A stretch of DNA of 61,611 nucleotides, filler included, from Pirum gemmata (GCA_002812295.1; 21 parts of 21 records of this genome joined end to end with filler, not necessarily neighbours in it); one strand, 5' to 3'; shown: positions 29,885 through 55,019, counted from the whole stretch's first letter. Made by a program: numbers and translations. Notes: a model not told the origin generated them from the letters alone.

Positions 29885-32485
29885 TTATTGTACATAATCA
29901 TTAGTTTCATCATATTCAGGTTCATATGGTTCTTTGTAATTATTAGCCTCTAGATGTTCAGTATACTCATTATCATTAGCTTTATTAGCCAATTCACCAG
30001 CCATCACAAAATCATTACTGCTAACCCCATTTAACAAATCTTTTTCATTTTTCTTGCGCTTATAAATGTAAATTACAACAGCAGCTCCCACTAAAGCTAA
30101 CAAAACAACTGCACCAATAACTACTCCGATAATGATCCCCTTGTTATTATTGCCTTCTTCACTTTGAGTGTTCACAATTATATTACATGCTTTTCGTATG
30201 TACCCAAGCTGTCCGTTAGTATTAATATACTTACTGTTAACTTTACAATCAATGTCTATGTTAAAATCAAACAATTTTTCTATTTCAAGAGTACTAGAAC
30301 AACAGTCTATAGAGTTTTTGTTCAACATTAACTTGCTTGATGGCTTAAGTGATAAAACTTTGCTTACTTCGTTTTCTTCCAAATGAGTAATAGCATTATC
30401 GCTTAAATCCAAAGTTTGCAGTTTCGTTTGTAGGCTTTTTAGAAAGCCAAGACTTTGAATTGAGTTATTACTTAAAACTAAAGCCGTTAACGCTTGAAAG
30501 CTACTAAATACCTTAGCGTCAATGTTGGTAATGTGAGCATTTTTCAAATTAACAGTGTTACAACGATGCACAAAATCAAAAGCTTTGCCTTCTTTTTTGG
30601 ATAAGTATCCTTTAGGGTCGATTTTAAATGCATAAGAAGTACACTTAGTGTGGCCATCTAACAACAAAGAGCCGATGTTAAAATTAGGATTTTGGAAAAT
30701 TGGGTCAAAAACTTTAGGAGGAAGATGTGTAATGTTGTTCAGTGTCAAATTTAACCCTGTTAAATGCTTTAAACCATCAAACGTTCCTGATGCTATGCTT
30801 GAAATACTATAGTTAGACAAATCCAAGTATTTGCATTGTTTTAGATAATGATATTCAGACCCTTTTCTTCTTGAAAGCTCTCCGTCAGCACTAATTTTAA
30901 AACCAAGAATAGAACATTTTGTTTTGTTATCTAAGAATAAAGTTTTATCCATCAGTAATCCTGGGTGGTTGTCAAAACAGCCCGCTGGTACTCGAGTAAT
31001 ATTATTATTAGTCAAGTTTAAAAAATTCAAATTACCAAAACTGGTGAAAGTATTATTGGAAATAATTTTTATACCTTGAAATGTTAAATTAAAACTCTGG
31101 CACTGAGAAACAAACTTATAACTTTGGTCATCATTTCTTTGTAATTGGAAGCCTGGGGAAGTTATTCTGAATGCTTTTATATCGCACTTTTTTCTCATGT
31201 GGTTGGGGCACACTGAATCCAAAGCGCATTTTCCTTTGTTTATTCCATCTTCACAGTATTCTCCAGTGCATGGTTTGAGTTTACCTTGAGCGCATTCTAA
31301 TCCTAGTTTACAAGTAACGCATTGTGTTTGGGAATCATTAGGCATAAGAGTACCAGTACACCTAGTTGCATTCCCATTACTACAAATACTATCCATTGGA
31401 CATTTGGCTTCAGTACCATTATGGCAGTATGGATCAGGGCAGCTTATTTGTTTACCATATTTACATTTGTATCCTTGTGTACAAGGTACGCATTGTGTTT
31501 GCGAATCATTAGAAATAACAGTACCGTTACACATAGTAGCCTTTCCATTTTGGCAAACATGATCACTTGGACAAGCTTTTGTTTTTCCTGTGGCACCAAT
31601 GCATTGAAATCCCGCTGGACAGGATAATTCTGTGCCATTTGTACATAAGTGATTTATTTTACAATCTTTTTCCTTCCCACCAAAACAATTTTTACCTTCA
31701 CTGCAACCAATACAATTAGTTTGGGCTGGGTTTGGCTTATATCTATCAGCACACTTTTTCTTTATCCCTTGCACACATATGTAGTCCGGAGCGCAGGCAG
31801 ACTGAATCCCAGTAGTATTATCACACTGAAATCCCGCCGGACAGGGTGTTTCTGCACCATTAACACATAAATGGTTTACTTGACAATCTTCTTCTACTCC
31901 GTTTGGGCACTTTTTGCCATTACTACACTTTTCACAAACTAATTGGGTAGCATTTGGTTTATAACCACTCAAACATTTTTCTTTTTTTCCACTAGGGCAA
32001 ATATAATCAGTCGGACAAGGAACACAACTGGCATTCCCACCTTCTCCATGTTCTCCTGCCTTGCATGCAGTACAGCTATCCCATGATTTTACTCCATCGC
32101 CAAAAAAACCTTCTGGGCAGGGTTCACAAACAAAATGCTTGTCCGTATCCAGAGTACAATTACCATAACAAGCACCCTGACAATTAATTAAATTATTAAT
32201 ATTGGGAAAAAAAACACGGTTACGTTGGGCTTGGGTTTTATCGTGTGTGAAATCAAAATCAATCACACTTTTGGGTAGCTTTATTAAACCGTGTGGGAAA
32301 TAAACATCCATAATGCTTTTGGGTAGTTTTTCAAAATTTCCTGGAGATAAAACGATTAAATTCGAACTATCAAGCCGGATCTCCGGATAACGATATCTAC
32401 TGTTATTTCTGAAATTATCTACGAATTGTTTGAAAATACCAGCAGGGATACTTTTGCCATTAAGTTTGTCTAAACGAAACTCTCT
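29885..32485 (-). CDS. Single-pass receptor: LRR-like segment, GCC2/GCC3-like Cys repeats, LRR cassettes, LRRCT, TM, Tyr-rich tail (5' truncated)
   Basis: Frame is open upstream of 32311 (EFRLDKLNGKSIPAGIFKQF). CP.G..C..G repeats, LxxLxLxxNxIxxLP repeats, NSIDCC cap, GIIIGVVIGAVVLLALVGAAVVIYIY helix then KRKK. Confidence 0.9.
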   Translation of the reverse strand, partial: REFRLDKLNGKSIPAGIFKQFVDNFRNNSRYRYPEIRLDSSNLIVLSPGNFEKLPKSIMDVYFPHGLIKLPKSVIDFDFTHDKTQAQRNRVFFPNINNLINCQGACYGNCTLDTDKHFVCEPCPEGFFGDGVKSWDSCTACKAGEHGEGGNASCVPCPTDYICPSGKKEKCLSGYKPNATQLVCEKCSNGKKCPNGVEEDCQVNHLCVNGAETPCPAGFQCDNTTGIQSACAPDYICVQGIKKKCADRYKPNPAQTNCIGCSEGKNCFGGKEKDCKINHLCTNGTELSCPAGFQCIGATGKTKACPSDHVCQNGKATMCNGTVISNDSQTQCVPCTQGYKCKYGKQISCPDPYCHNGTEAKCPMDSICSNGNATRCTGTLMPNDSQTQCVTCKLGLECAQGKLKPCTGEYCEDGINKGKCALDSVCPNHMRKKCDIKAFRITSPGFQLQRNDDQSYKFVSQCQSFNLTFQGIKIISNNTFTSFGNLNFLNLTNNNITRVPAGCFDNHPGLLMDKTLFLDNKTKCSILGFKISADGELSRRKGSEYHYLKQCKYLDLSNYSISSIASGTFDGLKHLTGLNLTLNNITHLPPKVFDPIFQNPNFNIGSLLLDGHTKCTSYAFKIDPKGYLSKKEGKAFDFVHRCNTVNLKNAHITNIDAKVFSSFQALTALVLSNNSIQSLGFLKSLQTKLQTLDLSDNAITHLEENEVSKVLSLKPSSKLMLNKNSIDCCSSTLEIEKLFDFNIDIDCKVNSKYINTNGQLGYIRKACNIIVNTQSEEGNNNKGIIIGVVIGAVVLLALVGAAVVIYIYKRKKNEKDLLNGVSSNDFVMAGELANKANDNEYTEHLEANNYKEPYEPEYDETNDYVQ

Positions 32486-32499
32486 GCAGTTTTTATAAA

Positions 32500-32532
<33 letters not shown>

Positions 32533-32632
32533 NNNNNNNNNNNNNNNNNNNNNNNNNNNNNNNNNNNNNNNNNNNNTTAATTAATTAANNNNNNNNNNNN
32601 NNNNNNNNNNNNNNNNNNNNNNNNNNNNNNNN

Positions 32633-32674
<42 letters not shown>

Positions 32675-32812
32675 CTGCAGAAAGCAAACCAATATTAGAT
32701 TTAGTTATGAATATAACAGGAGGCCTAAATTTACAACTTCAACACCAACCAAACGACCTACTGACTAACCATATTTTTAACAATAACAACGTTACTCACA
32801 TTAACACTAATA

Positions 32813-32843
<31 letters not shown>

Positions 32844-34611
32844 TAATAATGTTGGACGTCAAAAATCAATTGACCAATCACCACAACTTCAACCGCAACC
32901 TCAACCTCAACCTCAACCTCAACCTCAACCTCAACCTCAACCTCAACCGCAACACAATTGCAATATACGGCATCAATTCGCTAGATCAAAACCCATGAGA
33001 TTTAGTGACGGGAATATAAATATAAATACAAAATCATTAATTCAAAATTCACCGACTCTGTCATCAACGTTGTCAATGGGAGATAATGAAAATGAAAGAA
33101 TTAATAGTCAGAATAATATAAATTTTAATAATAATCGTAAAAATAGTAGTAATAGTATTTACTTTGGGAGCAGTCCGAAGCAGCCAAACTTTTATCATTC
33201 TAATGTTAACCTTGACGCTTCCATCTTGCAAAACAACAACAACAACAACAACAACAATATCGAAGTTAACGTTAAGCCTACTGATAATGCTAATTATAAT
33301 AATGATAATAAGATCACAATCATGAAAGAACAAGAAGAAGAAATCGATATAGAAAATATTGAAACTATTAAAGGGATTAAAACAATTAAGGATTTATTAA
33401 TCATAACTACGCAACCTAATCAATTCGCGCGTTTTCGTTATCAATCGGAACAGCGCGACAAACCCATTGAAGGTGAAAGAAATGGCTACCCCGAAATTAT
33501 CATCAACCCCAAATATTATAAGTATTTAAATTTAAATGATAAAAGTTTAGTGTGTAAAGTTAGCCCAGTTACACTATCTACCAACAAAGAGGGTCAGCCA
33601 ATGCCACATTTTCACGAACTAAGTGGAACTTTGAAAACTGAGTTTAACACTGAAAAAACAGGCGAGAGCATTCTTTTCTCTAGTAGTAGCATTAACCCAG
33701 AGCATCGTCAACATACTCAGACCACTTGTACTACCCAACCCAACCATCATCACCATCCCCATCACCATCCCCACCAGCACCAGCACCAGCAAGGCCACCA
33801 AAATTTTCGTAATAACAATTTGGATTTTTACACCACTACTACTACCACTACTGGACCAATGTATCACCAGTTTAATAATGATAATGATAACAGTAATAGT
33901 ATTAATAGTAATACTAATCCCATTTCAGCGCTCTTTGATAATTTAATTATATTAATGTCAAAACATCCAACTGTACCTAAAGAAGATGACCCCAAACGAG
34001 CTAAAATCGACCAACGTGCTGTGCGATTAAAATTTGAATGTTCCTTTGAATACCTTGGAGAAAAATATTATTCAAGCATTGTTTCCCAACCTATTTTCAA
34101 CGCAAAATTAGCAATCAGTAAACTCTCGCATAACTCTGGTACCGTTGTTGGTGGTAATGAAGTTATCATTTTGTGCTCCAAAATCAGAAAAGGTACTACA
34201 ACTATATCGATAAGTGAATGCCCCTTTGACATTCCATTTAGCTCAGGTCACCGTAATAAAAAAAAGGGGATCGAGTTAGTCGAACCGAATACTATAATTA
34301 AAGGAAATGAGCGAAATTGGATAAAGGATCCCGAAACTAATAGACATGTTTGTATATTGCCTGTAAGATATTTAACTTTTCATCATCAATTTGCAATTGC
34401 TTTTGAAATACCTCCATTTCATAATCAAAATATTACTGAACCAACAAGGGTTACTATTCGGTTGGCTGACTTTGAGGATCAAACTGAATCACAACCTGCG
34501 TTTTACACTTATTTTCCAAAAGAAGAATTTTCACAACAAGGTTATGAAAATGAGAGAAAGAGAAAAATGGCGAAGGGCTTGAATGAATTTTGGTCACAAT
34601 TTAATCAGTAG
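32633..34611 (+). CDS. NF-kB: NF-kB/Rel-family transcription factor (RHD + IPT + NLS, no ankyrin repeats), 5' truncated
   Basis: LIITTQPNQFARFRYQSE..IEG..YP recognition loop; VRLKF..VSQPIFN linker; LAISKLSHNSGTVVGGNEVIILCSKI and HHQFAIAFEIPPF IPT motifs; RKRK NLS. Frame is open to the contig start. Confidence 0.95.
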
Positions 34612-34841
34612 TAAATGATTAATGATAATATAATGATTAATGATAGTGATTAATGATGATTAGTGATAATGATAATGATAATGATAATGATAATGATAAT
34701 GATAAATGGTCACAATAATAATTATAATGATGAAAATAATAATAAATAAATTTTTAAATAAAAGTAAAAAATAAAATGATAATAAATTAATAAAGTAATT
34801 TTATTAATAATTAAAATAATAATTTATGATTTTTGTTTTTC

Positions 34842-34875
<34 letters not shown>

Positions 34876-35015
34876 ATAATCATTATTATCATTATAATAA
34901 TTATTATTATTATTATTTATATATCTACGTAAATCATCACTAATACTAAATTAATAACATTATTATTATTATTATAATTATTATTATTATTTTATATATT
35001 ATTTTACTATATTAG

Positions 35016-35293
35016 TTATTTGGCCCATTGTGTAGTTTCTGGACTAAAATTAAAACCATCCGCAACAATAAAGCGCCGGTCGTAAGGGGTACGAACTGTG
35101 TTTGCGCAATTTCCGCCACTCCAATTATTCCAACCAGCGTAACCTTTTTCTCGAGCTTCGAACCCATCCCTAATTTTTTCAATGTTTTCAACTTCATTAC
35201 TAGGCATCGATCCACAATGTGGTAAATAAAGTTCGGCCGCAACTTCTAATGTTTGCGCATTTATTACAGATATAACTTGTGTATCAAATCCTC
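35016..35293 (-). CDS. Terminal exon of an unknown protein, convergent with NF-kB
   Basis: TTAG acceptor at 35294-35295, then GFDTQVISVINAQTLEVAAELYLPHCGSMPSNEV...PYDRRFIVADGFNFSPETTQWAK*; GC-elevated complex sequence. Confidence 0.7.
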
Positions 35294-35887
35294 CTAATAA
35301 TAATAATGATAATTAATTAATAATTAATTAATAATTTAATATTATTATTAATTATGATAATTAATAATGATAATTAATAATAATTAATAATACTTAATAA
35401 TAATAATCAATAACACTAAATAACANNNNNNNNNNNNNNNNNNNNNNNNNNNNNNNNNNNNNNNNNNNNTTAATTAATTAANNNNNNNNNNNNNNNNNNN
35501 NNNNNNNNNNNNNNNNNNNNNNNNNTATTTAATTTGGTATATTTTATTATCTATTTGTTAATTTAAAAATGCCAATGTAAATATTATAACCAACCAAATA
35601 AATATTCGGAGTGACAGAATAAATGAAAAGCACGATATATATATAAATGTCTACTACTAGTCTAGCTAGTCTAGCTAGCTAGTAGCAGACCACGGGGGGG
35701 TCTCAGTGGGGGGTTTATTGTGCTTTCTGATCGTGCTTTTCAGTTGTTTTGTCATCATAAAATATATAAAAAAGAGTACCAAATTAATACAATATAAATC
35801 TATTTCATTTAATTAACCAAATAAATATTCGGAGTGACAAAATAAATGAAAAGCACTACTACTAGACTACCAGTAGTGTATAAACGA

Positions 35888-35935
35888 AAACCACCAGGAA
35901 AACCACCAGGAAAACCACCAGGAAAACCACCAGGA
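35888..35935. repeat. 12-bp minisatellite (AAAACCACCAGG)x4
   Basis: Direct reading. Confidence 0.9.
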
Positions 35936-36259
35936 ACCCCCCTCCCCACCAATAGCCAATAGACCTACTTAGACAATGGACTTTAATTAACAAAAAACAT
36001 TAAAATTTGATCATAGACAGAAATACCTCATAATTTTTTCTGGATTAGGACAGCTATTAGGACGTCACCTAATCTTACCCATGCCCTGTTGTCCAAAACA
36101 CTTTTGGTCATAATTTTAAAGTTCATTTTAATAATTAATTACTGCCTAAAACAGTTTAAGTCACACTTTCGAGCAATGACTTCTATCAAAGAATAAACGT
36201 CCTTTATGAATGTTCCCTAATACACTGTTGAGCGGGCACCATGGCCCTGGGATTAAGCC

Positions 36260-36527
36260 TCTCCCAATTCTGCTCGAGCCCGAAAACTCAAATTTCTGCT
36301 GTCGAAAAAAAAGCCCAAATTCAGTCCTGTTCGAAAAATATTTTTTCCATTTTTTCGGGTATATAAATAAATAAATATACTTGAATACTTAAGTAACTGT
36401 TAGCTTAAAATTTTCGAACTTATTTAATTAATACACAGGCTCGAAAACTCGATATATAGGCTCGAAAATTCGATACATAGGCTCGAAAACTCGATTTTTT
36501 AAACAAAGCAGAATTGGGAGAAACCTG
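36260..36527. mobile_element. MITE with TCTCCCAATTCTGC TIRs (hAT-like CAGGT terminus on one side)
   Basis: TIRs visible. Second copy at 59645-59861; fragment at ~5640-5708. Confidence 0.8.
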
Positions 36528-37641
36528 TGTGAGAGAGGTTAGGGTTAGGGTTAGGGTTAGGGTTAGGGTTAGGGTTAGGGTTAGTGAACAAACACACCAA
36601 AATATTTTGATTATTATTAAAAGAAATCCTACCACAACAATATAAATTTTGGTATGGCATTAATATTGTAAGTAAAAAACAAATATTTATACTGTTATAA
36701 ATTAGTTTTAGATTCTATATACTATGGTAATTGTAACCAACAAAACTACCTCTACATTATAAGATTATCAGCCTATATTAATACAAACGTATGATGAAAC
36801 AAATCAATAAAATGTATACAAGCTTATAAATAACATGATTGGAAAATCACTATAATAATGATTTACACAAACTACATTATTACATATAATACAATGTCTA
36901 AAAGTTTCTGAAACACAATTTGGAGATATACATTTTTAAATTATTATTATTATTTATTACTGATACAATAAAAATAAAATTAAAGCTGAATAAAAAATAA
37001 TTAGTACTCTATACTATTCAAATAATATATTTTAAAATTGTGATTTATTAATTTGATTAAAAGGAGTGGTTTTTTAAAAAAATTCTTAAGTTATCTTGAT
37101 TATTAATATTAGTATTATTATTATTAAACTACGAATACTAATACTAATACTATGACTATAACTATTATAAACAAACGAAATAGCAATAGCAAAGCAAAAA
37201 GATTTTTTTTTTCTTAGTTAACAATAGATCTAAAATTAAAGTTAAATAAAAAAAAATAAATAAATAGCGTATTTTTTTACTAAATTACTATATACACTAT
37301 GGTTTAAAACATGTAAAACATTTACAACCCTAACTGTTTTAACGCTAATAAAGACTTATGTACCCAATGAAAATACAGGGTTTAAAAAAATACTAATAAG
37401 AGTACGTTCACTCTTCAATAAGAAGGCGCCAGATTGTTTCAAGCTCTTGTGTGAATGTCACATGGCAACGCATACGCGGTGGAGGCCAGTATATGAGCAG
37501 GTGTTTTGATAATACCTATTTCAAAATACTATGATTATTTTGTAAATCATTTTTCTTTTTTTCAAAAAAAAAAAAAAAAAGATTAAAAATAAAAAAAACT
37601 AAATAAATGATAAAAATTAAAACACTATTTCAAATTCTCTT

Positions 37642-38138
37642 TCACTTTTTTTCACCTATTATTTTGGATTTTTTTCGGATTTGTCGTTTCTCATCCACCC
37701 CCGTAAACATACATTTATCAACAGTCGCTATTTTATAGAACAAACCACAACTAAATAGCAATAAAAGACTAGTACCCACAATTGAAAAGTAGTAGGTAAA
37801 AGTGCTAGGAAATAAGTGTTCGGAAACGTAACAACGTTGAAGAACTAATATATGCAAGATTATTCTAGTAGTAACAAATGACAACACGAAAAATACAAGA
37901 TTAACAGTATAAAAGGGGTTATTGAGTTTAGGAAACTCTAATAGTAATGCTAACTTTCGGATATGTAAAAATATGTTGTTGAACTCGCAGAACAAAGCGA
38001 CACACAAAATAGGAGCAAACATCCCACCTTTATAAATTGATATAAAATAACCAGTAAGAACTAAAGAGTGGTGAAAAAATAGAGGAATATTTAACGTTCC
38101 AGTGATAATCAAATCCAGAAAATCGGCCAAAAAATATC
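37642..38138 (-). CDS. TLC (TRAM/LAG1/CLN8) domain membrane protein, terminal exon
   Basis: TACAG acceptor at 38139-38140. GYFLADF, FHH, EFNNIFLHIRK and FVTTRI motifs; multiple TM helices; Lys-rich C-terminus. Confidence 0.88.
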
Positions 38139-38436
38139 CTGTATAGTAAAATTAAAAAGAAAGATTGGAATTAATGATCAAGTAATATTCAGAAGTTTCA
38201 TAACATTTTATCCATTTACTTGTTTATTTATTAATTTACTTTTTATTTATTATTTATTATTTATTTATTTATTATTTATTATTTATTATAATTTATTTAT
38301 TATTTATTATTCATTATTTATTATTTATTATTTATNNNNNNNNNNNNNNNNNNNNNNNNNNNNNNNNNNNNNNNNNNNNTTAATTAATTAANNNNNNNNN
38401 NNNNNNNNNNNNNNNNNNNNNNNNNNNNNNNNNNNG

Positions 38437-38457
38437 GATAATAATAATAATAATACC

Positions 38458-38503
<46 letters not shown>

Positions 38504-38596
38504 GCGATGATAGTATTGGTTTTTCGGATAATAATACAACGGGTTTACTTTCAAACAAAGTAGACCAACCTGATATTAAGGAAAAATTAATAAATG

Positions 38597-38648
<52 letters not shown>

Positions 38649-39627
38649 ACCCTCCAATTGTAAAATAAGTAAAGAAGACTTTGATACAGGTGTAGATGAC
38701 GTCAAGCATGATATAAGTGATGACGAAATTAAAAACGATAGTTTCACTACTACGACTACTACTACCACTACTACCGCTACTACCACTACTTCCACTACTA
38801 GTCTTAGTACTACCGTAAGTAATAGTACAAATATATTAGAAAGGCATAATGTGAAAGCTAATAATGTTAACATAAATAATGTCGATGTTGTCGATGTTGT
38901 TGATGATCATAATAACTTACTGAGTGATAATGAGTTATGTAATAATCTTGACAATCTTCATTTTGATGATTATAGCAATAACCACTATAACCACAACAAC
39001 AATAACCACAACAATAACCACAACAATAACCACAACAATAACCACAATCACAGCAACCACAACAACCACAACAACAACCACAACAATAATAATATGGGTT
39101 GTTATGATCAACCTGCCAACCCTTCTTTTGAGCCATTACTCGAAGCTATTATTTTACTGCAAGGCGAAAAACGAAGGAAACCTGTGTTAATGGGTGATAT
39201 TGGGTCTGTTTTACGTCACAGTTACCAAGGTTTTTTGAAATTAGGCAAATATATTGAAGCAGCTGAAGCTAGAAAGTTGGTTAGAGTAACCCGGTCCGAA
39301 AAGGGAGTGTTAATGGTGTTTTTATTATCTGGTGCTTTAGAGCTTTTACAAAATAGTAGTAATGGTAGTAGTTCGCTCATGTATAAGTTTAAAGATTATA
39401 AGAATAATAACTCTACTACCCTTATTTCTACTGGGAGTAGTACTAATGGTATTATAAGTAGTATGACTAATAACATGAATACGAGCAATAATAATAACGG
39501 GTTAAAAAATAATTATAACAATAATAATTTTTATAACAACTCTGCTATTAATAATAATAATAATAATAGTAATAATACTAGTGGTAACAACAACAATAAT
39601 AATGTGCTTAATACTAGTATTAGTAGC

Positions 39628-39661
<34 letters not shown>

Positions 39662-40545
39662 GAAATTATTATTATTACAATAACAAAAGCTTTGAAAAAG
39701 TCTCTGATACATACAGACCACTTCTTAAAGTAATAGCTGAAAACGGCAGATATATGGTACCGAGTTCCGAGATTGGAGCCTACTTAAAAGGTAAATTCCA
39801 AGGCTTCACAAAGCTTAAAGAGTACCTTCAGGCGGCTGAACAAAACGGGTTAATTAAATTAGTTAATCTTGGGTGTGGTCAATTTTCGGTTCGAATTGTG
39901 GATGAGTTCGAGCCTTTAAGATGTGTAATTTTAAATTTTATGCGTCAAGGAATTAACCCTGTACCTTTGTTTAGAATCAAAAAGGAACTAAAAGGCAACC
40001 ATGGTAAGTTTAATACCTTTTCTGAATACGTAAAAGAAGCCCTTAAGCGAGGGTTAATTATGATTATTGATAGTGAAAGTTCTAGTGTATATCCTACTAA
40101 TATATGGGTTCGTGATATACCTAATAACGATGACAATAACAATAACAATAACAATAATAATAACAACAATAATAATAGTAATAATAATAGTAATAATAAT
40201 AGTCATATTGGTAAGGATTTAGAAAAAACGTCTAGTACTTTGTCAGTATTGGGTATGAGTAATGAAGATACTTCAGCTCCGTTTTCTACAGATTATGATT
40301 ATGCAAGTAAGTTTTTGTATAGTCGATCAGCGGGTGAGAGTACAGTTAACAGCGATAACGAAAACGACAAAAAGGAAAAACGAGGCCTTAGAATTAGTAA
40401 TTCTTTTGTAGATAAAACAGATGAAATAGATAGTATTATGGGGAGTTATAATAATAATAATAAGAATAATAATAATAATAATAATAATCAAGCATTCATC
40501 TATAGCGAAATATCAAAAACAATCAAATTAAATACACACCTCTAA
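38437..40545 (+). CDS. Protein with three OST-HTH/LOTUS-like winged-helix repeats (5' truncated)
   Basis: Frame is open from the contig start. Repeats (F/Y)xPL..I...PV...IG..L...QGF.KL.EY..AAE..GL(I/V) at ~39127, ~39712 and ~39907, separated by poly-Asn. Confidence 0.8.
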
Positions 40546-41932: not shown

Positions 41933-41973
<41 letters not shown>

Positions 41974-42839: not shown

Positions 42840-44096
42840 TTAAAACCAGTTCTTGTGGTTTACTTTTAGGTATTCCTTTATAAGGCTATCGCCATGATTT
42901 ATTTGCATTTCCAGTAAACAAAGAGAACCTCGATTGTGCGCATACCTAGGTTTCCCAGCAGCATGTTCCACAACCACGTTCTTTATTTGTTTGGTGTAAC
43001 GATCGCAATAGATATGTGATATCCAATCATCCATATACCAATCAGAAAACACAACTGGGTAATAAGTCGAATCCCGAAAAATCTTAAAATGAGTTCGATG
43101 AGTAAAGTCATGAGTTAGTATTCTCATATTATTCATTTTGGTACCTTCGTGTGTAGGACCCACGACACCAAAATTTGGCGGATCTCGCTCAGTTAAAGTG
43201 CTGACAAATTCCAATGCCCATTTTGAGCGAGGGATGGTGTCGTCATTTGTTCTATAAAAATAGTCAGAACCATCCTCATAGGCGGAATGTAGAGCAAAAT
43301 TAAATGCTGGACCGGGCTTTTTAGGTTTATTGTGAAAGTTTAACATATTCAACTGCATAATGACGTTTGCTTTACGCTTAGCTGGAACGGCTATGTGCTT
43401 GTTAAACCATTGATAAATACTAGCTAAATTAGCTTTATTGTCTAAAATAGGGTCACCTATATCGTATGAAATCACAAACCAATATTCAAAACCATTTTCC
43501 AAATATTTCAAGTAACCAGGTAAGGTTCTACTAAATAAAACGAAACGTTTGGAATTAAATATGTTTTTTATATTAAGCGACAAACCTCTGGTCGTTAGCC
43601 CCATGCAAATAGATATGACTGGAAGTTCAGTTTGTTTTGTTAAAATTAAAGATTTTGGTCTGTTTGCAACAAATATTTCAATTCCTTTTTTAGTGTAATC
43701 AGATAATTTCTCACTTTTAATCCACTCAGTTACCAATTTTTTGGCAGAAACACTAGACAATTTCATGTCTTTTGGTTCAATTATTTTTTTTTGAAAGCAC
43801 TCATGCAACCAATCAAAACGCTCTTTCATAGCTAAATTAAGCTTAAAATGTTTTCGAATATAATTAACATCTTTCACAGAAAAAAATTCTTCCCCACTCA
43901 CTGCCCCGGGCGATATTGATGTCAGATCCTTGGATTTAAAATTTTGGCGTACCAAATAATCCAATCTACCCCAACGTACAGTTATACCTACAGGTGTGAC
44001 TGTAAATTTAATTTGAGTGCTAACCAAAATTAACACAACAGCAACGAGGCAAAGAGCCCAGGCTCTCTTTTTGTAAACTATTTTAACTTTTATCAT
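42840..44096 (-). CDS. Type II membrane glycosyltransferase (GT-A fold)
   Basis: Short basic N-tail plus TM anchor; YDIGD, DYFYRTNDD (DxD-like), GVVGP, ILTHDFTHRTH and WYMDDWI motifs; complete and intronless. Confidence 0.85.
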   Translation of the reverse strand: MIKVKIVYKKRAWALCLVAVVLILVSTQIKFTVTPVGITVRWGRLDYLVRQNFKSKDLTSISPGAVSGEEFFSVKDVNYIRKHFKLNLAMKERFDWLHECFQKKIIEPKDMKLSSVSAKKLVTEWIKSEKLSDYTKKGIEIFVANRPKSLILTKQTELPVISICMGLTTRGLSLNIKNIFNSKRFVLFSRTLPGYLKYLENGFEYWFVISYDIGDPILDNKANLASIYQWFNKHIAVPAKRKANVIMQLNMLNFHNKPKKPGPAFNFALHSAYEDGSDYFYRTNDDTIPRSKWALEFVSTLTERDPPNFGVVGPTHEGTKMNNMRILTHDFTHRTHFKIFRDSTYYPVVFSDWYMDDWISHIYCDRYTKQIKNVVVEHAAGKPRYAHNRGSLCLLEMQINHGDSLIKEYLKVNHKNWF

Positions 44097-44704
44097 AAAA
44101 AATAATAAATAAGAATAAATAAGAATAAGAATAAATAAGAATAAACAAGAATAAAAAAAATAAAATAAAAAATAANNNNNNNNNNNNNNNNNNNNNNNNN
44201 NNNNNNNNNNNNNNNNNNNTTAATTAATTAANNNNNNNNNNNNNNNNNNNNNNNNNNNNNNNNNNNNNNNNNNNNTTAGGGTTAGGGTTAGGGTTAGGGT
44301 TACGGTTACGGTTTCGGTTACGGTTACGGTTACGGTTAGGGGCTAGTCTACAGTTAGGATTAGGATTGTGATTGGCATTTTCCTAGCCCCTAATGATTTA
44401 AAATAATGTATAACAGTATTATTAATAATGCTTTTGTTTTTTTATAAAAAAAAATAAAAAAAATTAAAAAACTAAAATAAAAAATAGAAAAAAAAACTGA
44501 AAAGAATTGACACTACAATAATATAATAATTATTGGTCAAAGACTCCATTTCTTTTTCCTGGAGCCTTTGAATTCATAAGACTTGATCGTGAGACTCGAA
44601 AAAAAAAAAATGAACATCATTTCAAAGTTGTCACTATTTAATAATTAAGATCGAGTTGTTTGATTCGATTATGTTTTCCCGCATCTCTTGCACCTTACCT
44701 TCTG

Positions 44705-45990: not shown

Positions 45991-46072
45991 CATAAATTAC
46001 TGTAATCTTGTAAATGACTTTGATATTCAAGTAAATGAAAAGTAAGAGAACCAAAGTCTTGTTCTGATTGAA

Positions 46073-46165
46073 ATATATATAGCAAAAAAATGGTTATTTT
46101 CGCCATTCTAATAAATAATTACCTTTTTTGAATGGCGAAAATAACCATTTTTTTGCTATATATAT
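46073..46165. repeat. Perfect 36-bp inverted repeat with 21-nt spacer
   Basis: atatatatagcaaaaaaatggttattttcgccattc / gaatggcgaaaataaccatttttttgctatatatat. Confidence 0.9.
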
Positions 46166-47444: not shown

Positions 47445-49244
47445 ATGACAGCAACTACAATTTTACACAATCCTAGTTATTTAGGTAAAATAATTTATCA
47501 AAATGATTATCTCCGCAGTTCTATATTAAAATGTAGTTGGTCTTTAGAACAAGTTAATAATTGCGGTGATAAAGCTTTGTGGGTTCTGGAAAACCGTAGA
47601 GATATACAATGGGATAAAATACATATACCTGCTGAACAAATAAGTAACCTGGCTAGAAATGGAGACCTTGAGTTAATAAAATTTTATACCTGCCAAAATG
47701 TAAAAAGTAAGTTATTTAATTTGTATACGTATAAACAATAAATTCCAAAAGAATTTTTATTTATCATGATAGCACTAAGTAACAATAGAAATTTCAATAG
47801 TAATAGTAATCGTAATCGTAATATAAACTGTAATAGTATTAATATCTGTATTAGTATTAGCATTAGTATTAGCATTAGTATTAATAATAGTAATAGAAAA
47901 GTAATAGAAACATTATTAGTGTTAGTATTAAAAATAGTAATAGTAAAACTATTACCATATTATTAGTGTTCGTATTAAAAATAGTAATAGTAATACTATT
48001 ACCATTACTATTAATAGAAATAGTAATATTAATTGTAATAGTAATATTACTAGTAATAGTATTGGCAATATTAATAGTAATGGTAATAGTAATAGTAATA
48101 GTAATAGTATTAGTACTTGTTATAATTATAGGTATAGACGTAATAGTAACTGTAATCAAAGCGACAAAGCCATAATTATATAATTAGAAGTCATTATATA
48201 ATATAATAGTGGTATACTTATAATGTGGCAATAACCAAAATTTAATAGTAAAAAATAATCGATGGGTAATAATAACTATTTAATTAATATTTATTCTAAC
48301 TTTTTATCTTATTTTATTAATAAAAGGTGGTTTTTCAGAATTGACAATGGACATAGCCTCACAAGTAGGAAACTTGGAAATAGTGAAATATTTACACTTT
48401 AATCGAAAAGAAGGCTGTACGATTAACGCCATTGATTTTGCAGCAGAGGCAGGTCATTTAGAAGTCGTAATGTTTTTAAGTGAAAACCGCAACGAAGGTT
48501 GCTCAGAATTTGCTATGACCTGGGCTGCGCATAATGGACACACAGATGTTGTAAAATATTTGCACGAAAATCGTAACGAAGGTTGTGTAGAAATGGCTTT
48601 GAATTATGCCGTCAATAATGGAAAATTACATGTATTGAATTTTGATTGTGTGGCTGCAATGAACTGGTCAGCCAGCAACAGTGATTTAAAAGTTTTGAAA
48701 TTCTTATTCAAAGAAACTGAGCTACTGTCCCTGATTAAAGAAAAAGAGGATATTTTGTTAGATATTACGGTAAAAGATTTGAAAAATTTATTAGATGCTT
48801 TAGGATTAGAAAAATCGGGGCAAAAGCATGCTTTGATCAAAAGAATAACTGAATTTGCAATATACGGTCACAATAAACCACAAAATGAAAGTGTTAAAAG
48901 GAGGAATATGTATTTCATGGAGCAACAATACCAATATCATTATTATGGTCAAAGTAATGGTAGTCATAAAGTAATAAAACAAAGTTACCATGAACAAGAG
49001 CAGCAGCGCCAACAAGAACAACAAGAACAACAAGAACAACAAGAACAACAAGAACAACAAGAACAACAAGAACAACAAGAACAACAAGAACAACAGGATT
49101 ACCAACAGCTACAGCTACAACAACAACAACAACAGCAACAACAACAACAACAAAGTAATTATCAATACCAATACTATCAACAACAACGAGAACAACAAGA
49201 GTTTGAAAGGCTAAGAGAACAAAGAAACCGTAAACGCCGGGTAG

Positions 49245-49297
<53 letters not shown>

Positions 49298-49965
49298 AGA
49301 GAACAAGTACAGCAATACCAATTACAACTACAACACCGAGAGCAACAACAACAGCAACAAAGACAACAAGAACAACGATATCAATTACAGCTACAACAAA
49401 GAGAACAACTACAAAGAAACAACTCACAGCCACAGGTGCACATGGGTTTGTCTAAAAGTAGTCCAAATCTATCGTTTTATAAAAATGGCTCCAGTCAAGA
49501 CTCGAGCTCCCACGAGAAGGACAAAGGGGCAAGTCGCGCCTCTCTTTCCTCAGGTTTTATTCAGAAACGCAACAGTGAACCGTGTCTAGCAAGTTTTCGT
49601 AAAAGTATTTCAAATCAACCAAATTTGAAAACCGCGCTAAGTGAATTATCAACATATATCTCTCCTCAACAGCAAACTACTCAGCAGTCTGTTTCTCCGT
49701 CAACATCACCACCACCTTTATTGCAGCATTCGAATGAACAATGGAGTTGGGGAACAGAATTACAAAGTAAATTACAACAAAAAAAAAAACAACAACAACA
49801 ACAACAGCAGCAGCAGCAACACCAACAACAGCTGCAGCAACAACAACAGCAGCACCAACACCAACACCAACACCAACACCAATACCAACACCAATACCAA
49901 CACCAACACCAACTACAACAACACCAACTACAACAACTACAACTACAACAACAACAACAACAACA
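47445..49965 (+). CDS. Ankyrin-repeat + SAP-domain + poly-Gln protein; exon 1 47445-47706, exon 2 from 48327 (3' truncated)
   Basis: GTAAGT...AAAG phase-1 intron at 47707-48326 joins in frame (CQNVKSGFSELTMDIAS). Repeats of G(H/N)LE(V/I)VKYLHENRNEGC; SAP motif ITVKDLKNLLDALGLEKSGQKHALIKRI. Confidence 0.88.
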
Positions 49966-50208
49966 NNNNNNNNNNNNNNNNNNNNNNNNNNNNNNNNNNN
50001 NNNNNNNNNTTAATTAATTAANNNNNNNNNNNNNNNNNNNNNNNNNNNNNNNNNNNNNNNNNNNNTATTAATATTAATATTAACTTATATTAATATTATT
50101 ATTAATATTATAATAATAATAATGATATTCAATATTTCCATTAATTAATTTGCGGTTGGTTCAATTCCACTTTTACTCATATAAAAGTGTTCATCACCAG
50201 CTGGTACT

Positions 50209-50352
50209 TTATAGATTCTCGATTAAATTAGTTTGGCTATTACTACGACTTTCAATACAATTATCGCTCGAATTGTTATTAAACTGTTCATTATCAGTAT
50301 AGTCAATATCATGATTTTCGTATTCATCAATAACTTTACTATAATATTCCGG

Positions 50353-50405
<53 letters not shown>

Positions 50406-52874
50406 GATTTTGTTGATTTTGTTGTTTTTGTTGTTCTTTTTGTTCTTTTTGTTGTTGATGTTGCTGTTGTTGTTGTTGTTGTTGAGCCTGTTGTTGATGA
50501 TCTCGTTGTTGTTGTTGTTGTTGTGGTTGTTGTTGTTGATTAGTAGTAATAGATATACATTCACTGTAACCACCATTATCAAGAGGCAAAGCATGTGCGT
50601 AATTTTGAGAATCATATTGAGTTTCACATTCGTATTCATAATAAATAGAGTTAGAATTAGAGTTAGAGCTAGAGTAAGAGTTGGAGTAAGAGTTAGAGTT
50701 AGAGTTAGAGTTAGAGTTAGAGTTAGAATTAGAATTAGAGTTAGAGTTAGTAGGGTTATAATCAATTAAACCACTAATACTACTAATACTATTTTCACGA
50801 GAGTTTGAAGTTAAGTTAGTATATTCTTCATCAGTTTGCATTTCGTTTCTTAATTTATCATTTTCGCCTTGTACAAATTGTTCTACTGTCATTCCTAAAA
50901 ACTTTTTATCTCTTTTTTTCTTTTGATTTTTAGTATACATTAAAAAACTAACCACTGCACTAATAATAAATAACACTAACAATCCTAATATTAAACCTAC
51001 TAATGCACCTGTACTAATACTATTACTTTGATTGCTTGTATTAATAGATTGTACAGAAACACCTAATGAACATTGTAAATCATCATTTACTTTGCCATTA
51101 CAAAATAAACATGAATAAAGCTGGGTGATATTGTTATAAAAAAGAGCAAACCCATCTTTGCAACTTTTGCACTTTCTTTGTGGAGAATGATTATCCGCAC
51201 ATTGTTTATCAAAATGAATAATACAATCACTTATAACATCAGTACAAACCTCACAACTACTTAAATTGGTTTCATTATTATTATTATCATTATTATTATT
51301 ACTATTATCTATTTTGGTTTTTGGTTGTTGTAAATAATGTCCAGGTTGACATTCATTACATACTTTTTCAGTATGAAAAACACTATCACATTCTAATTTA
51401 TAACTACCACAATGCTGAGTGGATTCTGAACAACTTACACAAGTATTATTATTATTTAAATAATAACCCACACGACATAAATCACAAACCAAAGCATTAA
51501 ATATTGTACATTGTTGTTTATGTTCTGCACAATTAAAGTCAGTACTATGACAAGCAATACATTTTTTTTGATCAGAAGATAAATAATAACCATCATCACA
51601 CACACCACAAGTTCGATAATTTACTTCTGAAGTACAATTATGTTGAAATTGTTTACAATTTAAAATGTTTAATTGACAAGGTCTACATAAATTGTTATCA
51701 AGATCCAAAAAGTAATCACTCTCACAACTTTCGCAAGTATTATCAGTTGTCAATACTTTGTTTTCACTACAACTTTTACATAACATATAACCTGTTCTAT
51801 TAGAGTTATCACAAATGTTTTCATAATAAATTTGACAATCTTTAACTCCTTTTTCGCACGATTTACAAGTGTTAGTTAACTTATCTAACACTGATCCTTG
51901 TGTACATTCTAAACATGAACGTACTAATTGGTTGACACCTTGAAAAGAGTTTATAATACATGTTTTGCTATAATAAGAGCATTTATCTACTGCAGTACAT
52001 TTCTCACATTTATTTGTAATATTATTAAGCTGGAACCCAATTTCACATTCTAAACAAGTTTTACTTTTGTTAACATCATCCCCTTTACAATTAACATCAT
52101 GAAACAAACAATTATTAACATCAAAACATTCTGTACATTCGTTATTAGAGTTAAGTTGATATCCTAATTGACATTTACCACATGTTCTTTCATAAAATGC
52201 TACAGGGTTAGGGTTAGGGTCAGAGGCAGGGTTAGGGTTAGGGTTAGGGTTAGGGTTAGGATTAGGGCTTTTCTGAATGCATTCATTTTCATGGTACAGA
52301 CAAAAAGGTACCTCTGTGCACTTCTTACAAACTACACTATTGTTTACTAATTGATACCCAGCATTGCATTGATCACAAACACTATACTGATTAATACATT
52401 CTAATTCTGTATTAATATTTATACAATTAATATCAGTTATACATTTTACACATTGTTGTCGATTAGTAGATAAAGTGAAACCTGGATAACATTCTGAACA
52501 TAAACTTTGTCTATTATTACTAACCAAACAATCATCCTCATGTTTTTTGCAATTTTGTACAGATTTACCACAGAGTGTACTACATTGTTTATTAACAATG
52601 TAATATCCTTCATAACAATCAGTACAAATTCTTAAATTTGATTTAGGATCACAAACAAAAGAAGCAGTTTTACAATTAGCTTCAACAGAACAAGCCAACT
52701 CTAAAAGTTGATCGTTGGATTGTATAGTAGCCCATTTATTATTGTCAAAATAAACGGTGGCTCCAATACCATTTTGTAATTTTAAACGGCCACTGTCAAT
52801 GTTATAAAAAGAATTCAAACGTATAATTATTTTTGGGTTAACTTCTCTTAAAGTTTGAAAGCAAGTAGTATCAT
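50209..52874 (-). CDS. Single-pass receptor with furin-like/VSP-type CxxC repeats, TM and long Tyr-rich tail (5' exons missing)
   Basis: TACAG acceptor at 52875-52876. About a dozen CxxCxxG(Y/F)xL..CxxC units; GALVGLILGLLVLFIISAVVSFLMY helix then basic residues. Confidence 0.9.
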
Positions 52875-53287
52875 CTGTAATATATTATTTTATTATTNNN
52901 NNNNNNNNNNNNNNNNNNNNNNNNNNNNNNNNNNNNNNNNNTTAATTAATTAANNNNNNNNNNNNNNNNNNNNNNNNNNNNNNNNNNNNNNNNNNNNTTA
53001 GTATTAGTATTAATAAAAGTCGTGAAAGATGTGAAAATTAATTCAAGTATAACTTTGATCATGAGTTTAATGTTATTTGTTAAAAAATAATATTGCGATT
53101 ATGTAAATCTCGAAAATCTTTTCAATTAAAACAAGATTGGTTTTTTTGAAAAATATAATATTAATACCAAGTGAATAAACACCTTTATCTGCAAGTACTA
53201 ATTAAAGTTGTTATTGTGTCTTTGAAAAAATACCAAACAAGGTTGTAAAAAATACTAATTAAGGTTATATAAAGGCGTCTCTAATTG

Positions 53288-53589
53288 AAGAGGCTAATAC
53301 AGATGACATCACGTATATATATTTTTTTTCAACGCGTTTATCCACCTATAAATAAGTCGAACGAACCTCTTACGGATAAAATATACGAAACAAAAAAGTA
53401 AAAATAAGAAAAAAAGTGAATTGGATAAAGTTTTTAATTTTTTTTATATCTTATTAATATATATAATTTAAAAATAAAAAAAATGGAATAGTAATATTTA
53501 AATCTCTCGGGGTTCGCCTTAGGTTAGCTGACACGATGAAAAAAAAAATTTAAAAAAACGTAGTGCGATATTTTCTGTATTAGCCTCTT
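53288..53589. mobile_element. MITE-like element with 16-bp TIR AAGAGGCTAATACAGA
   Basis: Perfect inverted 16-mers ~300 bp apart; single copy in the window. Confidence 0.6.
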
Positions 53590-53696
53590 GATTTAGAATT
53601 CTTTAATTATACTTCATAGTGACTGCTAGTAGTAACCTTTCAAAACATTAATAATTCAAATAATAATACTTCATAGTGACTTAAAAAAAATACCAA

Positions 53697-55019
53697 TTAA
53701 TGTTTTACTTCATAGTAATGTTCTTGTTCAGGAAGCCCCAGATTTCGGGAATTTTCCTCATATGTCATGTATTTCTCTCCGTAGTAAATGTTTCGGGAAT
53801 TTTCTTCAAACGTGACGTATTCCCCTTCCTTGTCCACATTAATACTTTGAGCTGCTGAGAATTCTTTTATTTCGTAGCAAGTCTTGCTGTTAGTATAGTT
53901 TTTATCTTTATTTACTGTTGCTTTCTTAGTGGGCGTAGCATGGATGACAGGACCAGTAGCACTTTTAGTTACGTATTCGTATTCAGCGTCAGATTGCAAA
54001 ACAATGGCTCCCTCGTTGACAAATTCTTTTGGAGTTAATCCATTTAATTGATCTTTTTTTAATTCTTTAATTTTGCTATTTTTTCGGCAATAAACCACTG
54101 CTAAGATGATCGCAATAACCAAGACAGAAACAACTACGCCTACTATGATGCCAACAAGCATACCCACATTACTACTCCCACCGTTATCCCCACCACTATC
54201 ACTTTCTGAACTGGTTCCAGTACTAGTGGTAGGTATATTAGTAGTGGTGATAACAAAAGCATTATTAGGTAAAGAGGGATTAGCATCGTTTTGAGGAAGA
54301 TTGCTATTTTGGCACTGACCCATACCACCTTTAATAACATTTTGATAAATCCACTGCTGGTCAGCATCGTTAGACGCACAATTCTCGTTTAAATGAAAAT
54401 CGGCAGTGTAATGAAAAATGGAATCTTCCTCGGATATATAAAAGTGGATACACTTGTATTGTTGACTGGAATTGCTATAGGTAATGTTACTGGGAATTTG
54501 TATTATTGTGGGTCCAGTGAAAGTCGCCGCGAAAGAGAAATCTGTGCAATTAGTATCTTGATATAAAAAAAATCGAGTATACAATGGCAAAACAAACCAA
54601 CGTGTTTGAGAAAGAGGCCAGTTTGGAATTGTACTTTGGGTAGCTTCACTTGAAACTATTTGCATAGCATTGTTCATGTTTGGAAAATTGGTGCTGGTGT
54701 TAGTATGGCACTGTGACCTGGTTGCGCTAGAAGCGTGTATTGTAAATCGATCTTTGTCCCCAGAGTTACAAGAGGGTGACTTGTGGAAAATGGTCACATA
54801 CTGGTTAGACGATGTAGAGTAGAAAAAGTGTGCACATTGAAACGGGGAGGCATCAACAGGAAACATTTCAGGTTTGGCAAAATCATAGGTGAACGCTGCT
54901 GATGCATTACAATTGTTTTGGTTTAAATAAAATGACACTTTCACTGGAAATCCAGGAGGATTCCCGTTCACCCCAAGGTTTAAGAATGATAGTATGGAAT
55001 ATAAAAAAAATACAAACAT
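53697..55019 (-). CDS. Complete type I membrane protein: signal peptide, two tandem 4-Cys domains, Ser/Thr/Gly stalk, TM, Tyr-rich tail
   Basis: MFVFFLYSILSFLNLGVNG signal; internal duplication; MLVGIIVGVVVSVLVIAIILAVVYC helix; about 11 Tyr in the tail. Confidence 0.92.
   Translation of the reverse strand: MFVFFLYSILSFLNLGVNGNPPGFPVKVSFYLNQNNCNASAAFTYDFAKPEMFPVDASPFQCAHFFYSTSSNQYVTIFHKSPSCNSGDKDRFTIHASSATRSQCHTNTSTNFPNMNNAMQIVSSEATQSTIPNWPLSQTRWFVLPLYTRFFLYQDTNCTDFSFAATFTGPTIIQIPSNITYSNSSQQYKCIHFYISEEDSIFHYTADFHLNENCASNDADQQWIYQNVIKGGMGQCQNSNLPQNDANPSLPNNAFVITTTNIPTTSTGTSSESDSGGDNGGSSNVGMLVGIIVGVVVSVLVIAIILAVVYCRKNSKIKELKKDQLNGLTPKEFVNEGAIVLQSDAEYEYVTKSATGPVIHATPTKKATVNKDKNYTNSKTCYEIKEFSAAQSINVDKEGEYVTFEENSRNIYYGEKYMTYEENSRNLGLPEQEHYYEVKH

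What the first reader, a model, noticed from the sequence alone, without database searches (positions are those of the whole stretch)
29885..55019. Undescribed kinase-less receptor family: three unrelated ectodomains share one juxtamembrane motif and multi-Tyr tails
Seen on three unlinked contigs, about 8-13 aa after the TM and a basic patch: DLLNGVSSNDFVMAG..NDNEYTE (29996-30040), KKFLGMTVEQFVQGE..TDEEYTN (~50863-50910) and DQLNGLTPKEFVNEG..SDAEYEY (54009-54053). Consensus is (L/F)(N/L)G(V/M/L)(S/T)xx(D/Q/E)FV-x9-12-DxEY. The ectodomains differ completely (LRR plus Cys repeats; furin-like CxxC; a novel double domain). The tails have no kinase, TIR or death domain but carry about 5, 14 and 11 Tyr in acidic contexts (YTNL, YENH, YEEN, YYEV). 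Established: acidic-context Tyr are Src-type substrates and SH2 docking sites, and animal cytokine and immune receptors recruit kinases through membrane-proximal boxes. Inference: a common docking box couples shuffled sensor ectodomains to one cytoplasmic kinase or adaptor. Three hits in 21 contigs suggest a large family.
Basis: partly seen in the sequence, partly recalled or inferred. Interest (0 to 1): 0.9.

Follow-up and report, generated by a model that had tools for sequence, protein, structure and literature searches.

The report
Kinase-less tyrosine receptors of ichthyosporeans
Two single-celled relatives of animals carry a family of surface receptors with very different outer parts, no enzyme domain and one shared short sequence box just inside the membrane, and these receptors likely signal as animal immune receptors do, by borrowing a cytoplasmic tyrosine kinase.

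Summary
Observation confirmed and extended. The motif lies 7-11 residues after the membrane helix in three ORFs and nowhere else in the window's six frames. A profile of these three plus one paralog, run over 1.84 billion proteins, returned 24 proteins with helix plus motif among 150 listed. All 20 traced are from Pirum gemmata or Abeoforma whisleri. None has a kinase, TIR or death domain. Ectodomains fall into at least six unrelated classes. The box is bipartite: D-x-L-x-G-x-[ST]-[PA]-x-[EQD]-F-V, then a Tyr 20-26 residues after the Gly in 27 of 27. Distal tails, outside the search profile, are enriched in Tyr and SH2-type motifs. Published RNA-seq gives Pirum 3 receptor kinases, 8 cytoplasmic ones and 45 SH2 domains (PMC4342544). 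Best reading: immunoreceptor-like signalling through a cytoplasmic, probably Src-family, kinase. No partner or phosphorylation is shown; R1's C-terminus could be spliced; the Monosiga RM1 motif could not be compared. An earlier scan note on this genome (e1-9893649) reported one kinase-less receptor, not this box or family.

The parts
29885..32530 (-). R1: 5'-truncated single-pass receptor (881-aa open frame); Cys repeats, LRRs, helix, 58-aa tail with 5 Tyr
   Evidence: (LRR_8 E 6e-24); probable acceptor AG at 32485-32484 (inferred)
31190..32182 (-). R1 Cys-repeat region; part of it matches the Abeoforma P0043 ectodomain
   Evidence: E 7e-18; limits approximate
30185..31108 (-). R1 LRR region, similar to Pirum P0031 and P0057
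   Evidence: E 1e-30, 2e-17
30062..30136 (-). R1 membrane helix
   Evidence: hydropathy 2.97
30005..30040 (-). R1 Box A (DLLNGVSSNDFV)
   Evidence: 19.3 bits with the database-only profile
29963..29974 (-). R1 conserved Tyr site (DNEY), Gly+21; degenerate Box B
29762..29891 (.). 7-mer tandem array (18.7 copies) that contains R1's stop codon and starts right after a GT: 3' UTR repeat or start of an intron
50209..52884 (-). R2: 5'-truncated single-pass receptor (891-aa open frame); CxxC repeats, helix, 240-aa tail with 14 Tyr and Asn/Ser and Gln runs
   Evidence: probable acceptor AG at 52876-52875 (inferred)
50932..51006 (-). R2 membrane helix
   Evidence: hydropathy 3.05
50872..50907 (-). R2 Box A (KKFLGMTVEQFV)
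   Evidence: 28.5 bits
50821..50835 (-). R2 conserved Tyr site (TDEEY), Gly+24
53697..55019 (-). R3: complete 440-aa receptor in one open frame; signal peptide, duplicated Cys domain, Thr/Ser stalk, helix, 129-aa tail with 11 Tyr
   Evidence: 74% identical paralog P0001 in Pirum gemmata
54294..54947 (-). R3 ectodomain: two diverged copies of a ~90-aa Cys domain with no known family
   Evidence: internal alignment score 75, maximum 62 in 2000 shuffles; no Pfam hit here; only P0001 found
54087..54158 (-). R3 membrane helix
   Evidence: hydropathy 3.48
54018..54053 (-). R3 Box A (DQLNGLTPKEFV)
   Evidence: 39.8 bits; predicted turn plus helix
53979..54005 (-). R3 Box B (IVLQSDAEY), Tyr at Gly+20

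Best explanation
These are members of a family of single-pass, kinase-less receptors, found in Pirum and Abeoforma, in which unrelated ectodomains sit on one membrane helix plus juxtamembrane box, and the box likely docks a cytoplasmic tyrosine kinase, most probably of the Src family, that would phosphorylate the tail. Shown: the family, the box, no catalytic domain in the available sequences, and SH2-type Tyr motifs in the tails. Inferred steps: (1) ligand binding clusters the receptor. (2) Box A, predicted to form a turn and an N-capped helix, holds the kinase or its adaptor near the membrane. (3) The invariant acidic Tyr 20-26 residues after the Gly is phosphorylated first. (4) The variable distal Tyr motifs then recruit different SH2 proteins, among them tandem-SH2 phosphatases, so the input (ectodomain) and output (distal tail) vary around one fixed coupling box.
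For: Family: 24 of 150 listed hits carry helix plus motif; 20 of 20 traced are Pirum or Abeoforma. Motif-only scores separate members from controls: 23 of 27 score 12.8 bits or more when left out; the best of 126 helix-only hits scores 8.5. Conservation in 27: Gly 27, S/T 26, F 24, V 22, L(-2) 22, D(-4) 20; Tyr at Gly+20..26 in 27, against mean 10.4 and maximum 19 in 2000 shuffles. No kinase, TIR or death domain in the 3 window proteins or 23 members scanned; P0001 has no precomputed Pfam hit; 15 of 24 database tails run 120 aa or more without one. Distal tails of 25 members, outside the profile: Tyr 6.3%, Phe 1.5%, Trp 0.07%; against block shuffles [DE]Y 56 vs 35.5, Yxx[LIV] 56 vs 25.4, YAx[LV] 12 vs 0.8 (each 0 of 1000), ITIM consensus 15 vs 6.1 (1 of 1000), Y[DE]xP 5 vs 1.0 (3 of 1000), YxN 29 vs 19 (9 of 1000); 17 patterns were tested. 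Tyr vs Phe+Trp 165:40 against 170:165 in 47 control tails. Context: Pirum has 3 Src, 1 Abl, 3 Csk, 1 Tec, 3 RTK, four SH2-bearing PTPs and 45 SH2 domains; Abeoforma has 5 Src, 8 RTK and 56 SH2 (PMC4342544). Precedent: acidic Tyr sites of Monosiga RM2 are phosphorylated by MbSrc1 and bind its SH2 (PMC3584944).
Against: No partner, phosphorylation or ligand is shown. Members carry the motif by selection; only their narrow taxonomy and distal tails are independent of the search. Four of 27 score 6.6 bits or less when left out. Full Box B is in 15 of 27 and R1 and R2 miss the strict pattern. None of the three window proteins has an ITIM or ITAM consensus. Yxx[LIV] is also the AP-2 sorting pattern (recalled). 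Control tails overlap member tails in Tyr share (0-10% vs 0-20%) and are not from the same organism. Six of 24 database tails are 70 aa or shorter and come from assemblies with broken gene models (PMC5560861). The kinase counts are from RNA-seq and may be incomplete. Src is chosen by availability and analogy; Abl, Tec, Csk or an RTK would fit as well.
Confidence: 0.6

Rival explanations
1. The box is a lineage-specific trafficking signal (export, endocytosis or recycling) shared by many surface proteins; the tails may or may not signal by phosphotyrosine.
For: D-L-L opens the box in many members and the box lies 9-27 residues from the membrane; Yxx[LIV] is enriched in the tails. A sorting signal would also be shared across unrelated ectodomains.
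Against: [DE]xxxL[LI] in 1 of 27, DxxLL in 2, NPxY in 0, first Tyr in a Yxx-hydrophobic context in 5. The most conserved residues (G, S/T, F, V, and E before Tyr) belong to no sorting motif I know (recalled). Tails hold up to 17 Tyr with acidic -1 residues.
Confidence: 0.17
2. The box joins receptors to each other or to a catalytic co-receptor (one of the few RTKs or a receptor phosphatase), and that partner phosphorylates the tail.
For: A predicted helix with a hydrophobic face close to the membrane; Gly-spaced membrane helices in the four seed sequences; Pirum keeps 3 RTKs.
Against: No kinase-bearing protein with the box among the 150 hits; the two kinase-bearing hits that looked similar fall outside the top ten controls, at 0.7 bits or less, with the motif-only profile. 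The Gly spacing was part of the search profile.
Confidence: 0.12
3. These are fragments of receptor kinases: the tails splice onward into kinase domains lost in fragmented assemblies.
For: R1's stop lies inside a repeat array that starts right after a GT, 125 bases from the contig end; its 58-aa tail is of juxtamembrane length. Six database tails are short. Published Pirum and Abeoforma gene models are partial.
Against: 15 of 24 database members and 2 of 3 window proteins have 120-293 aa tails without kinase motifs. R3 and its paralog P0001 end within three residues of each other after the same Tyr motif. RNA-seq found only 3 and 8 RTKs in the two species.
Confidence: 0.06
4. The box is a passenger: a helix-plus-tail segment was duplicated and shuffled, and the likeness is leftover ancestry without a present function.
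For: The segment is probably homologous across members (tree); turn-and-helix-cap patterns arise often (RuvA chance match, E 0.037).
Against: Distal tails align only between close paralogs, while the box keeps near-invariant positions across two genera and long branches (median end branch 0.91); the linker between Box A and the Tyr varies in sequence and length.
Confidence: 0.05

Closest known systems
[quoted passage not shown]
   Same: Diverse ectodomains, no catalytic domain, Tyr motifs in the tail, inferred dependence on Src-family kinases.
   Different: Found in unicellular ichthyosporeans; large LRR or Cys-repeat ectodomains; a shared non-Tyr box next to the membrane; canonical ITAM spacing in only 3 of 25; no sequence link to any animal family was found.
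Transmembrane adaptors and Tyr-tail proteins (LIME1, SCIMP, MUC1 tail, vaccinia A36R)
   Same: Nearest look-alikes by language-model features for R3's helix and tail (all scores under 0.9, leads only).
   Different: The adaptors have tiny ectodomains and palmitoylated Cys (recalled); here ectodomains are large and a Cys near the helix end is in 7 of 27.
Cytokine receptor Box1/Box2-JAK and CD4/CD8-Lck coupling (recalled)
   Same: A membrane-proximal motif shared by receptors without enzyme activity that is inferred to hold one kinase.
   Different: No proline box (1 of 27), no CxC clasp (0 of 27); Jak not found in the ichthyosporeans studied.
Monosiga brevicollis RM2 domain (PMC3584944, passages) and RM1 motif (Manning 2008, recalled, paper not held)
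   Same: Lineage-specific acidic Tyr modules in receptors of a unicellular holozoan; RM2 is phosphorylated by Src and binds its SH2. As I recall, RM1 is a short Tyr motif shared by unrelated membrane proteins.
   Different: RM2 is about 80 aa, disordered, and lies behind a kinase domain in RTKB only. RM1 could not be compared by sequence; no choanoflagellate protein was among the 20 members traced.
Ichthyosporean receptor tyrosine kinases, IchRTK1-20 (PMC4342544, parts 1-4 of 7 and supplement 2 part 1)
   Same: Shuffled ectodomains (LRR, EGF, TNFR-like Cys repeats) in the same clade.
   Different: They carry a kinase; the parts read describe no kinase-less receptors or juxtamembrane box ('juxtamembrane' 0 occurrences in the main text).

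Membership tests
NTR / immunoreceptor class | No intrinsic catalytic domain | tested here: met
   Pfam on 3 window proteins and 23 members, motif scan; R1 and six short tails could be incomplete
NTR / immunoreceptor class | Conserved Tyr motifs in the tail | tested here: met
   Tyr at Gly+20..26 in 27 of 27; enriched [DE]Y, Yxx[LIV], ITIM consensus
NTR / immunoreceptor class | Canonical ITAM or ITIM | tested here: inconclusive
   ITAM spacing in 3 of 25, ITIM consensus in 8 of 25, neither in R1-R3
NTR / immunoreceptor class | Phosphorylated by Src-family kinases | not testable with these tools
   Src paralogs are present in Pirum and Abeoforma; no assay
NTR / immunoreceptor class | Small (4-10 nm) ectodomains on leukocytes | tested here: not met
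   R1 and R2 ectodomain frames exceed 600 aa; unicellular host. Works like an NTR; not filed as one
Receptor tyrosine kinase | Cytoplasmic kinase domain | tested here: not met
   onward splicing not excluded for R1
Toll-like or TNF receptor | TIR or death domain | tested here: not met
   R1's LRR hits to Toll and Slit are 22-29% over longer stretches and none has the box near a helix
Cytokine receptor (JAK-coupled) | Proline-rich Box1 near the membrane (recalled) | tested here: not met
   1 of 27
Transmembrane adaptor (LAT/PAG/LIME type) | Very short ectodomain and juxtamembrane Cys pair (recalled) | tested here: not met
   large ectodomains; CxC 0 of 27; single Cys near helix end 7 of 27
Classical sorting signals | [DE]xxxL[LI], DxxLL, NPxY or Yxx-hydrophobic at the conserved position (recalled) | tested here: not met
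   1, 2, 0 and 5 of 27
Monosiga RM2 domain | About 80 aa, behind a kinase in RTKB tails | tested here: not met
   position and length differ; no sequence alignment to RM2 was run
Monosiga RM1 motif | RM1 consensus sequence | not testable with these tools
   paper not held; no held paper surfaced with the motif

The most novel reading that the evidence does not exclude
The Pirum/Abeoforma lineage independently built an immunoreceptor-like superfamily, possibly hundreds of genes, in which shuffled sensor ectodomains and variable SH2-motif tails are wired through one dedicated kinase-docking box, and this system took over from receptor tyrosine kinases in a single-celled relative of animals.
Probability: 0.35. 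Interest if true: 0.9.

Novelty: new variant of a known kind. Interest (0 to 1): 0.75.

Why it matters
Receptors that have no enzyme and borrow a cytoplasmic tyrosine kinase are a hallmark of animal immune and cytokine signalling. Surveys of unicellular holozoans counted kinases, phosphatases and SH2 domains and so could not see such receptors. This family offers an explanation for why Pirum and Abeoforma have few RTKs (3 and 8) but several Src and Csk paralogs and 45-56 SH2 domains, while Creolimax and Sphaeroforma have 30-37 RTKs and one Src (PMC4342544). That contrast rests on two related species and Amoebidium has many of both. It also gives a 25-residue handle for finding the partner, and Abeoforma can be transfected (PMC11286789), so the question of whether kinase-borrowing receptors arose outside animals is directly testable.

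Tried and rejected
No whole genome is held for this window, so family size in the genome was not counted; 3 hits in 59,422 bases give 10-148 per Mb, which I reject as an estimate because the window was picked for these hits. Word-indexed homolog searches found only P0001 or generic LRR proteins. Viral and metagenome contig scans with the four-sequence alignment found no relative; the 25-sequence alignment was too divergent for that tool. Sequencing runs: no RNA holder listed. Contigs of X1-X3 laid on 53540-55200 show at least two close copies of R3 and one joint only (a replaced stretch at 53778-53780); a contig of X3 bridges the stop codon, but X3 being RNA is a guess and that contig looks like the paralog, so this does not prove the transcript end. 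AlphaFold of R3 from two sequences was unusable (pLDDT 31.6); no fold search was run. The complex predictor was not available, so self-association is untested. PDB sequence search: helix-only matches with the full profile; only RuvA at E 0.037 and two weaker chance hits with the motif profile. Pfam on motif segments: three single weak hits in 25. Atlas: no useful hit for full R3. Dropped from the 45 rows printed: 21, among them P0061 (94 aa, partial likeness, source not traced), P0062 (sea-urchin repeat protein, no helix before the match), and P0055 and P0069 (protein kinases). The tree (27 rows, none left out, 71 columns) has 2 of 24 branches well supported; the 15-row group with full Box B has 90/92 support and is partly circular, so no order of events is claimed. 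Manning 2008 is not held. Literature searches listed no paper on this family; most subscription papers are not in the library.


Full report
Setting. The window is 21 AT-rich contigs of about 2.8 kb joined by N spacers; no whole genome is held. A Rel-homology hit on contig 12 and the relatives below place it in Holozoa. The closest relative of R3 is a 74% identical Pirum gemmata protein, so the organism is inferred to be Pirum gemmata or a close relative. R3's exact sequence is not in the collection.

Observation. A class-based pattern occurs 3 times in 123,218 six-frame positions and in 3-11 of 100,000 tail shuffles; it was written after seeing the motif, so the database test below carries more weight. 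R3 is complete, with a signal peptide and an ectodomain of two diverged Cys domains (score 75, maximum 62 in 2000 shuffles). R1 and R2 begin at probable splice acceptors and lack their 5' exons. R1's stop codon lies in the first unit of a 7-mer array that follows a GT and runs to the contig end, so onward splicing of R1 is not excluded. R2's 240-aa tail is open and Tyr-bearing to its end but was not checked against reads.

Family. A 73-position profile of helix plus motif from R1-R3 and P0001 was run over 1.84 billion representatives: 162 hits at E 0.001 or better, 150 listed. I printed the 45 that reached the motif columns or matched a loose pattern and kept 24 by eye. Of these 24, 20 were traced: 17 Pirum gemmata and 3 Abeoforma whisleri; P0032, P0035, P0038 and P0142 were not traced. 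This narrow range among 1.84 billion proteins cannot come from the way the profile was built. A motif-only profile from the 23 new members finds R3, R2 and R1 at 39.8, 28.5 and 19.3 bits; the next six-frame hit in the window has E 0.12. Leave-one-out scores are 12.8 or more for 23 of 27 and 6.6 or less for four; the best of 126 helix-only hits scores 8.5 with the full profile. Absence from other holozoans is not shown, because the seed profile was small and Pirum-based.

Anatomy of the box. With the Gly as position 0 (27 of 27): D-4 20, L-2 22 (F or I in the rest), S/T+2 26, P/A+3 23, E/Q/D+5 24, F+6 24, V+7 22. The Gly lies 9-27 residues after the helix, mostly 9-17. A Tyr follows at +20 to +26 in all 27 (shuffle mean 10.4, maximum 19). 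In 15 of 27 it sits in a fuller Box B, hydrophobic-x-hydrophobic-x-[STN]-D-x-[EDQ]-Y; these 15 include all three Abeoforma proteins and most ectodomain types, whereas most of the other 12 are LRR-type. AlphaFold on the 25-sequence motif alignment gives a turn at L-x-G-L and a helix at PKEFVN (pLDDT 85 for that block, pTM 0.31): a short capped helix, which is a modest prediction for a 39-residue peptide. The box matches no Pfam family and, in the PDB, only RuvA at chance level.

Ectodomains. LRR (R1 and six members by Pfam), LNR/Notch repeats (P0026), a PAN-like domain (P0024, just under the cut-off), CxxC repeats (R2, P0019, P0029, by eye), Cys repeats (P0043), the R3 double domain and an unassigned type (P0037). 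BLAST links only the LRR group, P0043 with R1, and close paralogs. R1 is a mosaic: its Cys repeats match Abeoforma P0043 and its LRRs match Pirum P0031 and P0057. Shuffling onto a common helix-plus-box segment is the simplest reading (inference).

Tails. No kinase, TIR or death domain was found in R1-R3 or 23 members; 15 of 24 database tails are 120 aa or longer, six are 70 or shorter. Beyond the searched region, tails align only between close paralogs, yet in 25 members (two close paralogs dropped) Tyr is 6.3% against Phe 1.5% and Trp 0.07%, and [DE]Y, Yxx[LIV], YAx[LV], ITIM consensus, Y[DE]xP and YxN exceed block shuffles; YxxQ is depleted and several patterns are not enriched (17 tested). 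Member tails are richer in Tyr than 47 control tails (p 0.002) but the ranges overlap and the controls are not from the same organism. R1-R3 themselves have no ITIM or ITAM consensus.

Mechanism. Suga et al. (PMC4342544; parts 1-4 of 7, passages with Table 1, supplement 2 part 1 of 4) report for Pirum RNA-seq 11 kinase domains (3 Src, 1 Abl, 3 Csk, 1 Tec, 3 RTK), 16 PTP, 45 SH2 and 0 PTB domains, and no Jak or Syk in the ichthyosporeans studied. The writers and readers that such tails need are thus present and expanded while RTKs are few. In Monosiga, acidic Tyr sites in RM2 are phosphorylated by Src and bind its SH2 (PMC3584944, passages). I therefore commit to this: Box A docks a cytoplasmic kinase or its adaptor, the conserved Tyr is the priming site, and distal motifs recruit SH2 proteins (0.6 overall; about 0.75 that the tails signal by phosphotyrosine, about 0.4 that the Box A partner is a Src-family kinase itself). 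All three steps are inferred. Rivals are a sorting signal (0.17), receptor-receptor coupling (0.12), truncated RTKs (0.06 for the family, higher for R1 alone) and a passenger segment (0.05).

Comparison and novelty. It works like animal non-catalytic tyrosine-phosphorylated receptors (PMC11399299, passages) but is not filed as one: ectodomain size and host differ and phosphorylation is untested. It fails the tests for RTK, Toll/TNF, JAK-coupled receptors, transmembrane adaptors and classical sorting signals. Ten literature searches (listings only, apart from the papers named) showed no description of the family. PMC8662651, PMC5876402, PMC5560861 and PMC11286789 were seen as passages. The main gap is Manning 2008 (not held): from memory its RM1 motif is a Tyr motif shared by unrelated Monosiga membrane proteins, which would be a conceptual precedent; the unread parts of the Suga supplements could also bear on this. 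Verdict: a real, apparently undescribed family and motif using a known signalling logic; new variant of a known kind; interest 0.75.

Noticed in passing
window 32635-34608 (+): Rel-homology (NF-kB/NFAT-like) protein fragment; RHD_dimer E 2.4e-16.
   Followed up: partly
window 5811-6584 (+) and 7799-8623 (-): Two convergent paralogous ORFs on contig 3 share a C-terminal region with R-V-x-F followed by T-Y-S-x-x-x-Y-x-R, which resembles neurabin-type PP1-binding motifs (recalled; seen).
   Followed up: no
window 38437-40542 (+): Low-complexity protein with two or three repeated small domains; weak winged-helix hit below cut-off (E 3.5e-5); may be LOTUS/OST-HTH-like (guess).
   Followed up: partly
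window 42843-44174 (-): 444-aa open frame with an N-terminal hydrophobic stretch and no Pfam hit; looks like a type II membrane glycosyltransferase (guess).
   Followed up: partly
window 48284-49963 (+): Ankyrin repeats plus SAP domain plus Gln-rich region.
   Followed up: partly
window 37645-38151 (-): TLC-domain exon after an AT-rich intron-like stretch.
   Followed up: partly
window 2905-2935 and 44276-44340; also inside R2: TTAGGG-type repeats at the starts of contigs 2 and 16; a Pro-Asn run in R2's ectodomain frame may come from the same hexamer.
   Followed up: no
window 55130-55812: A stretch of about 270 bases upstream of R3 occurs twice in near-identical copies.
   Followed up: no
P0062 (sea urchin LOC754335): Repeat protein whose units contain a Box A-like stretch after a basic run but no membrane helix; scores 4.7 bits, probably chance.
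   Followed up: partly
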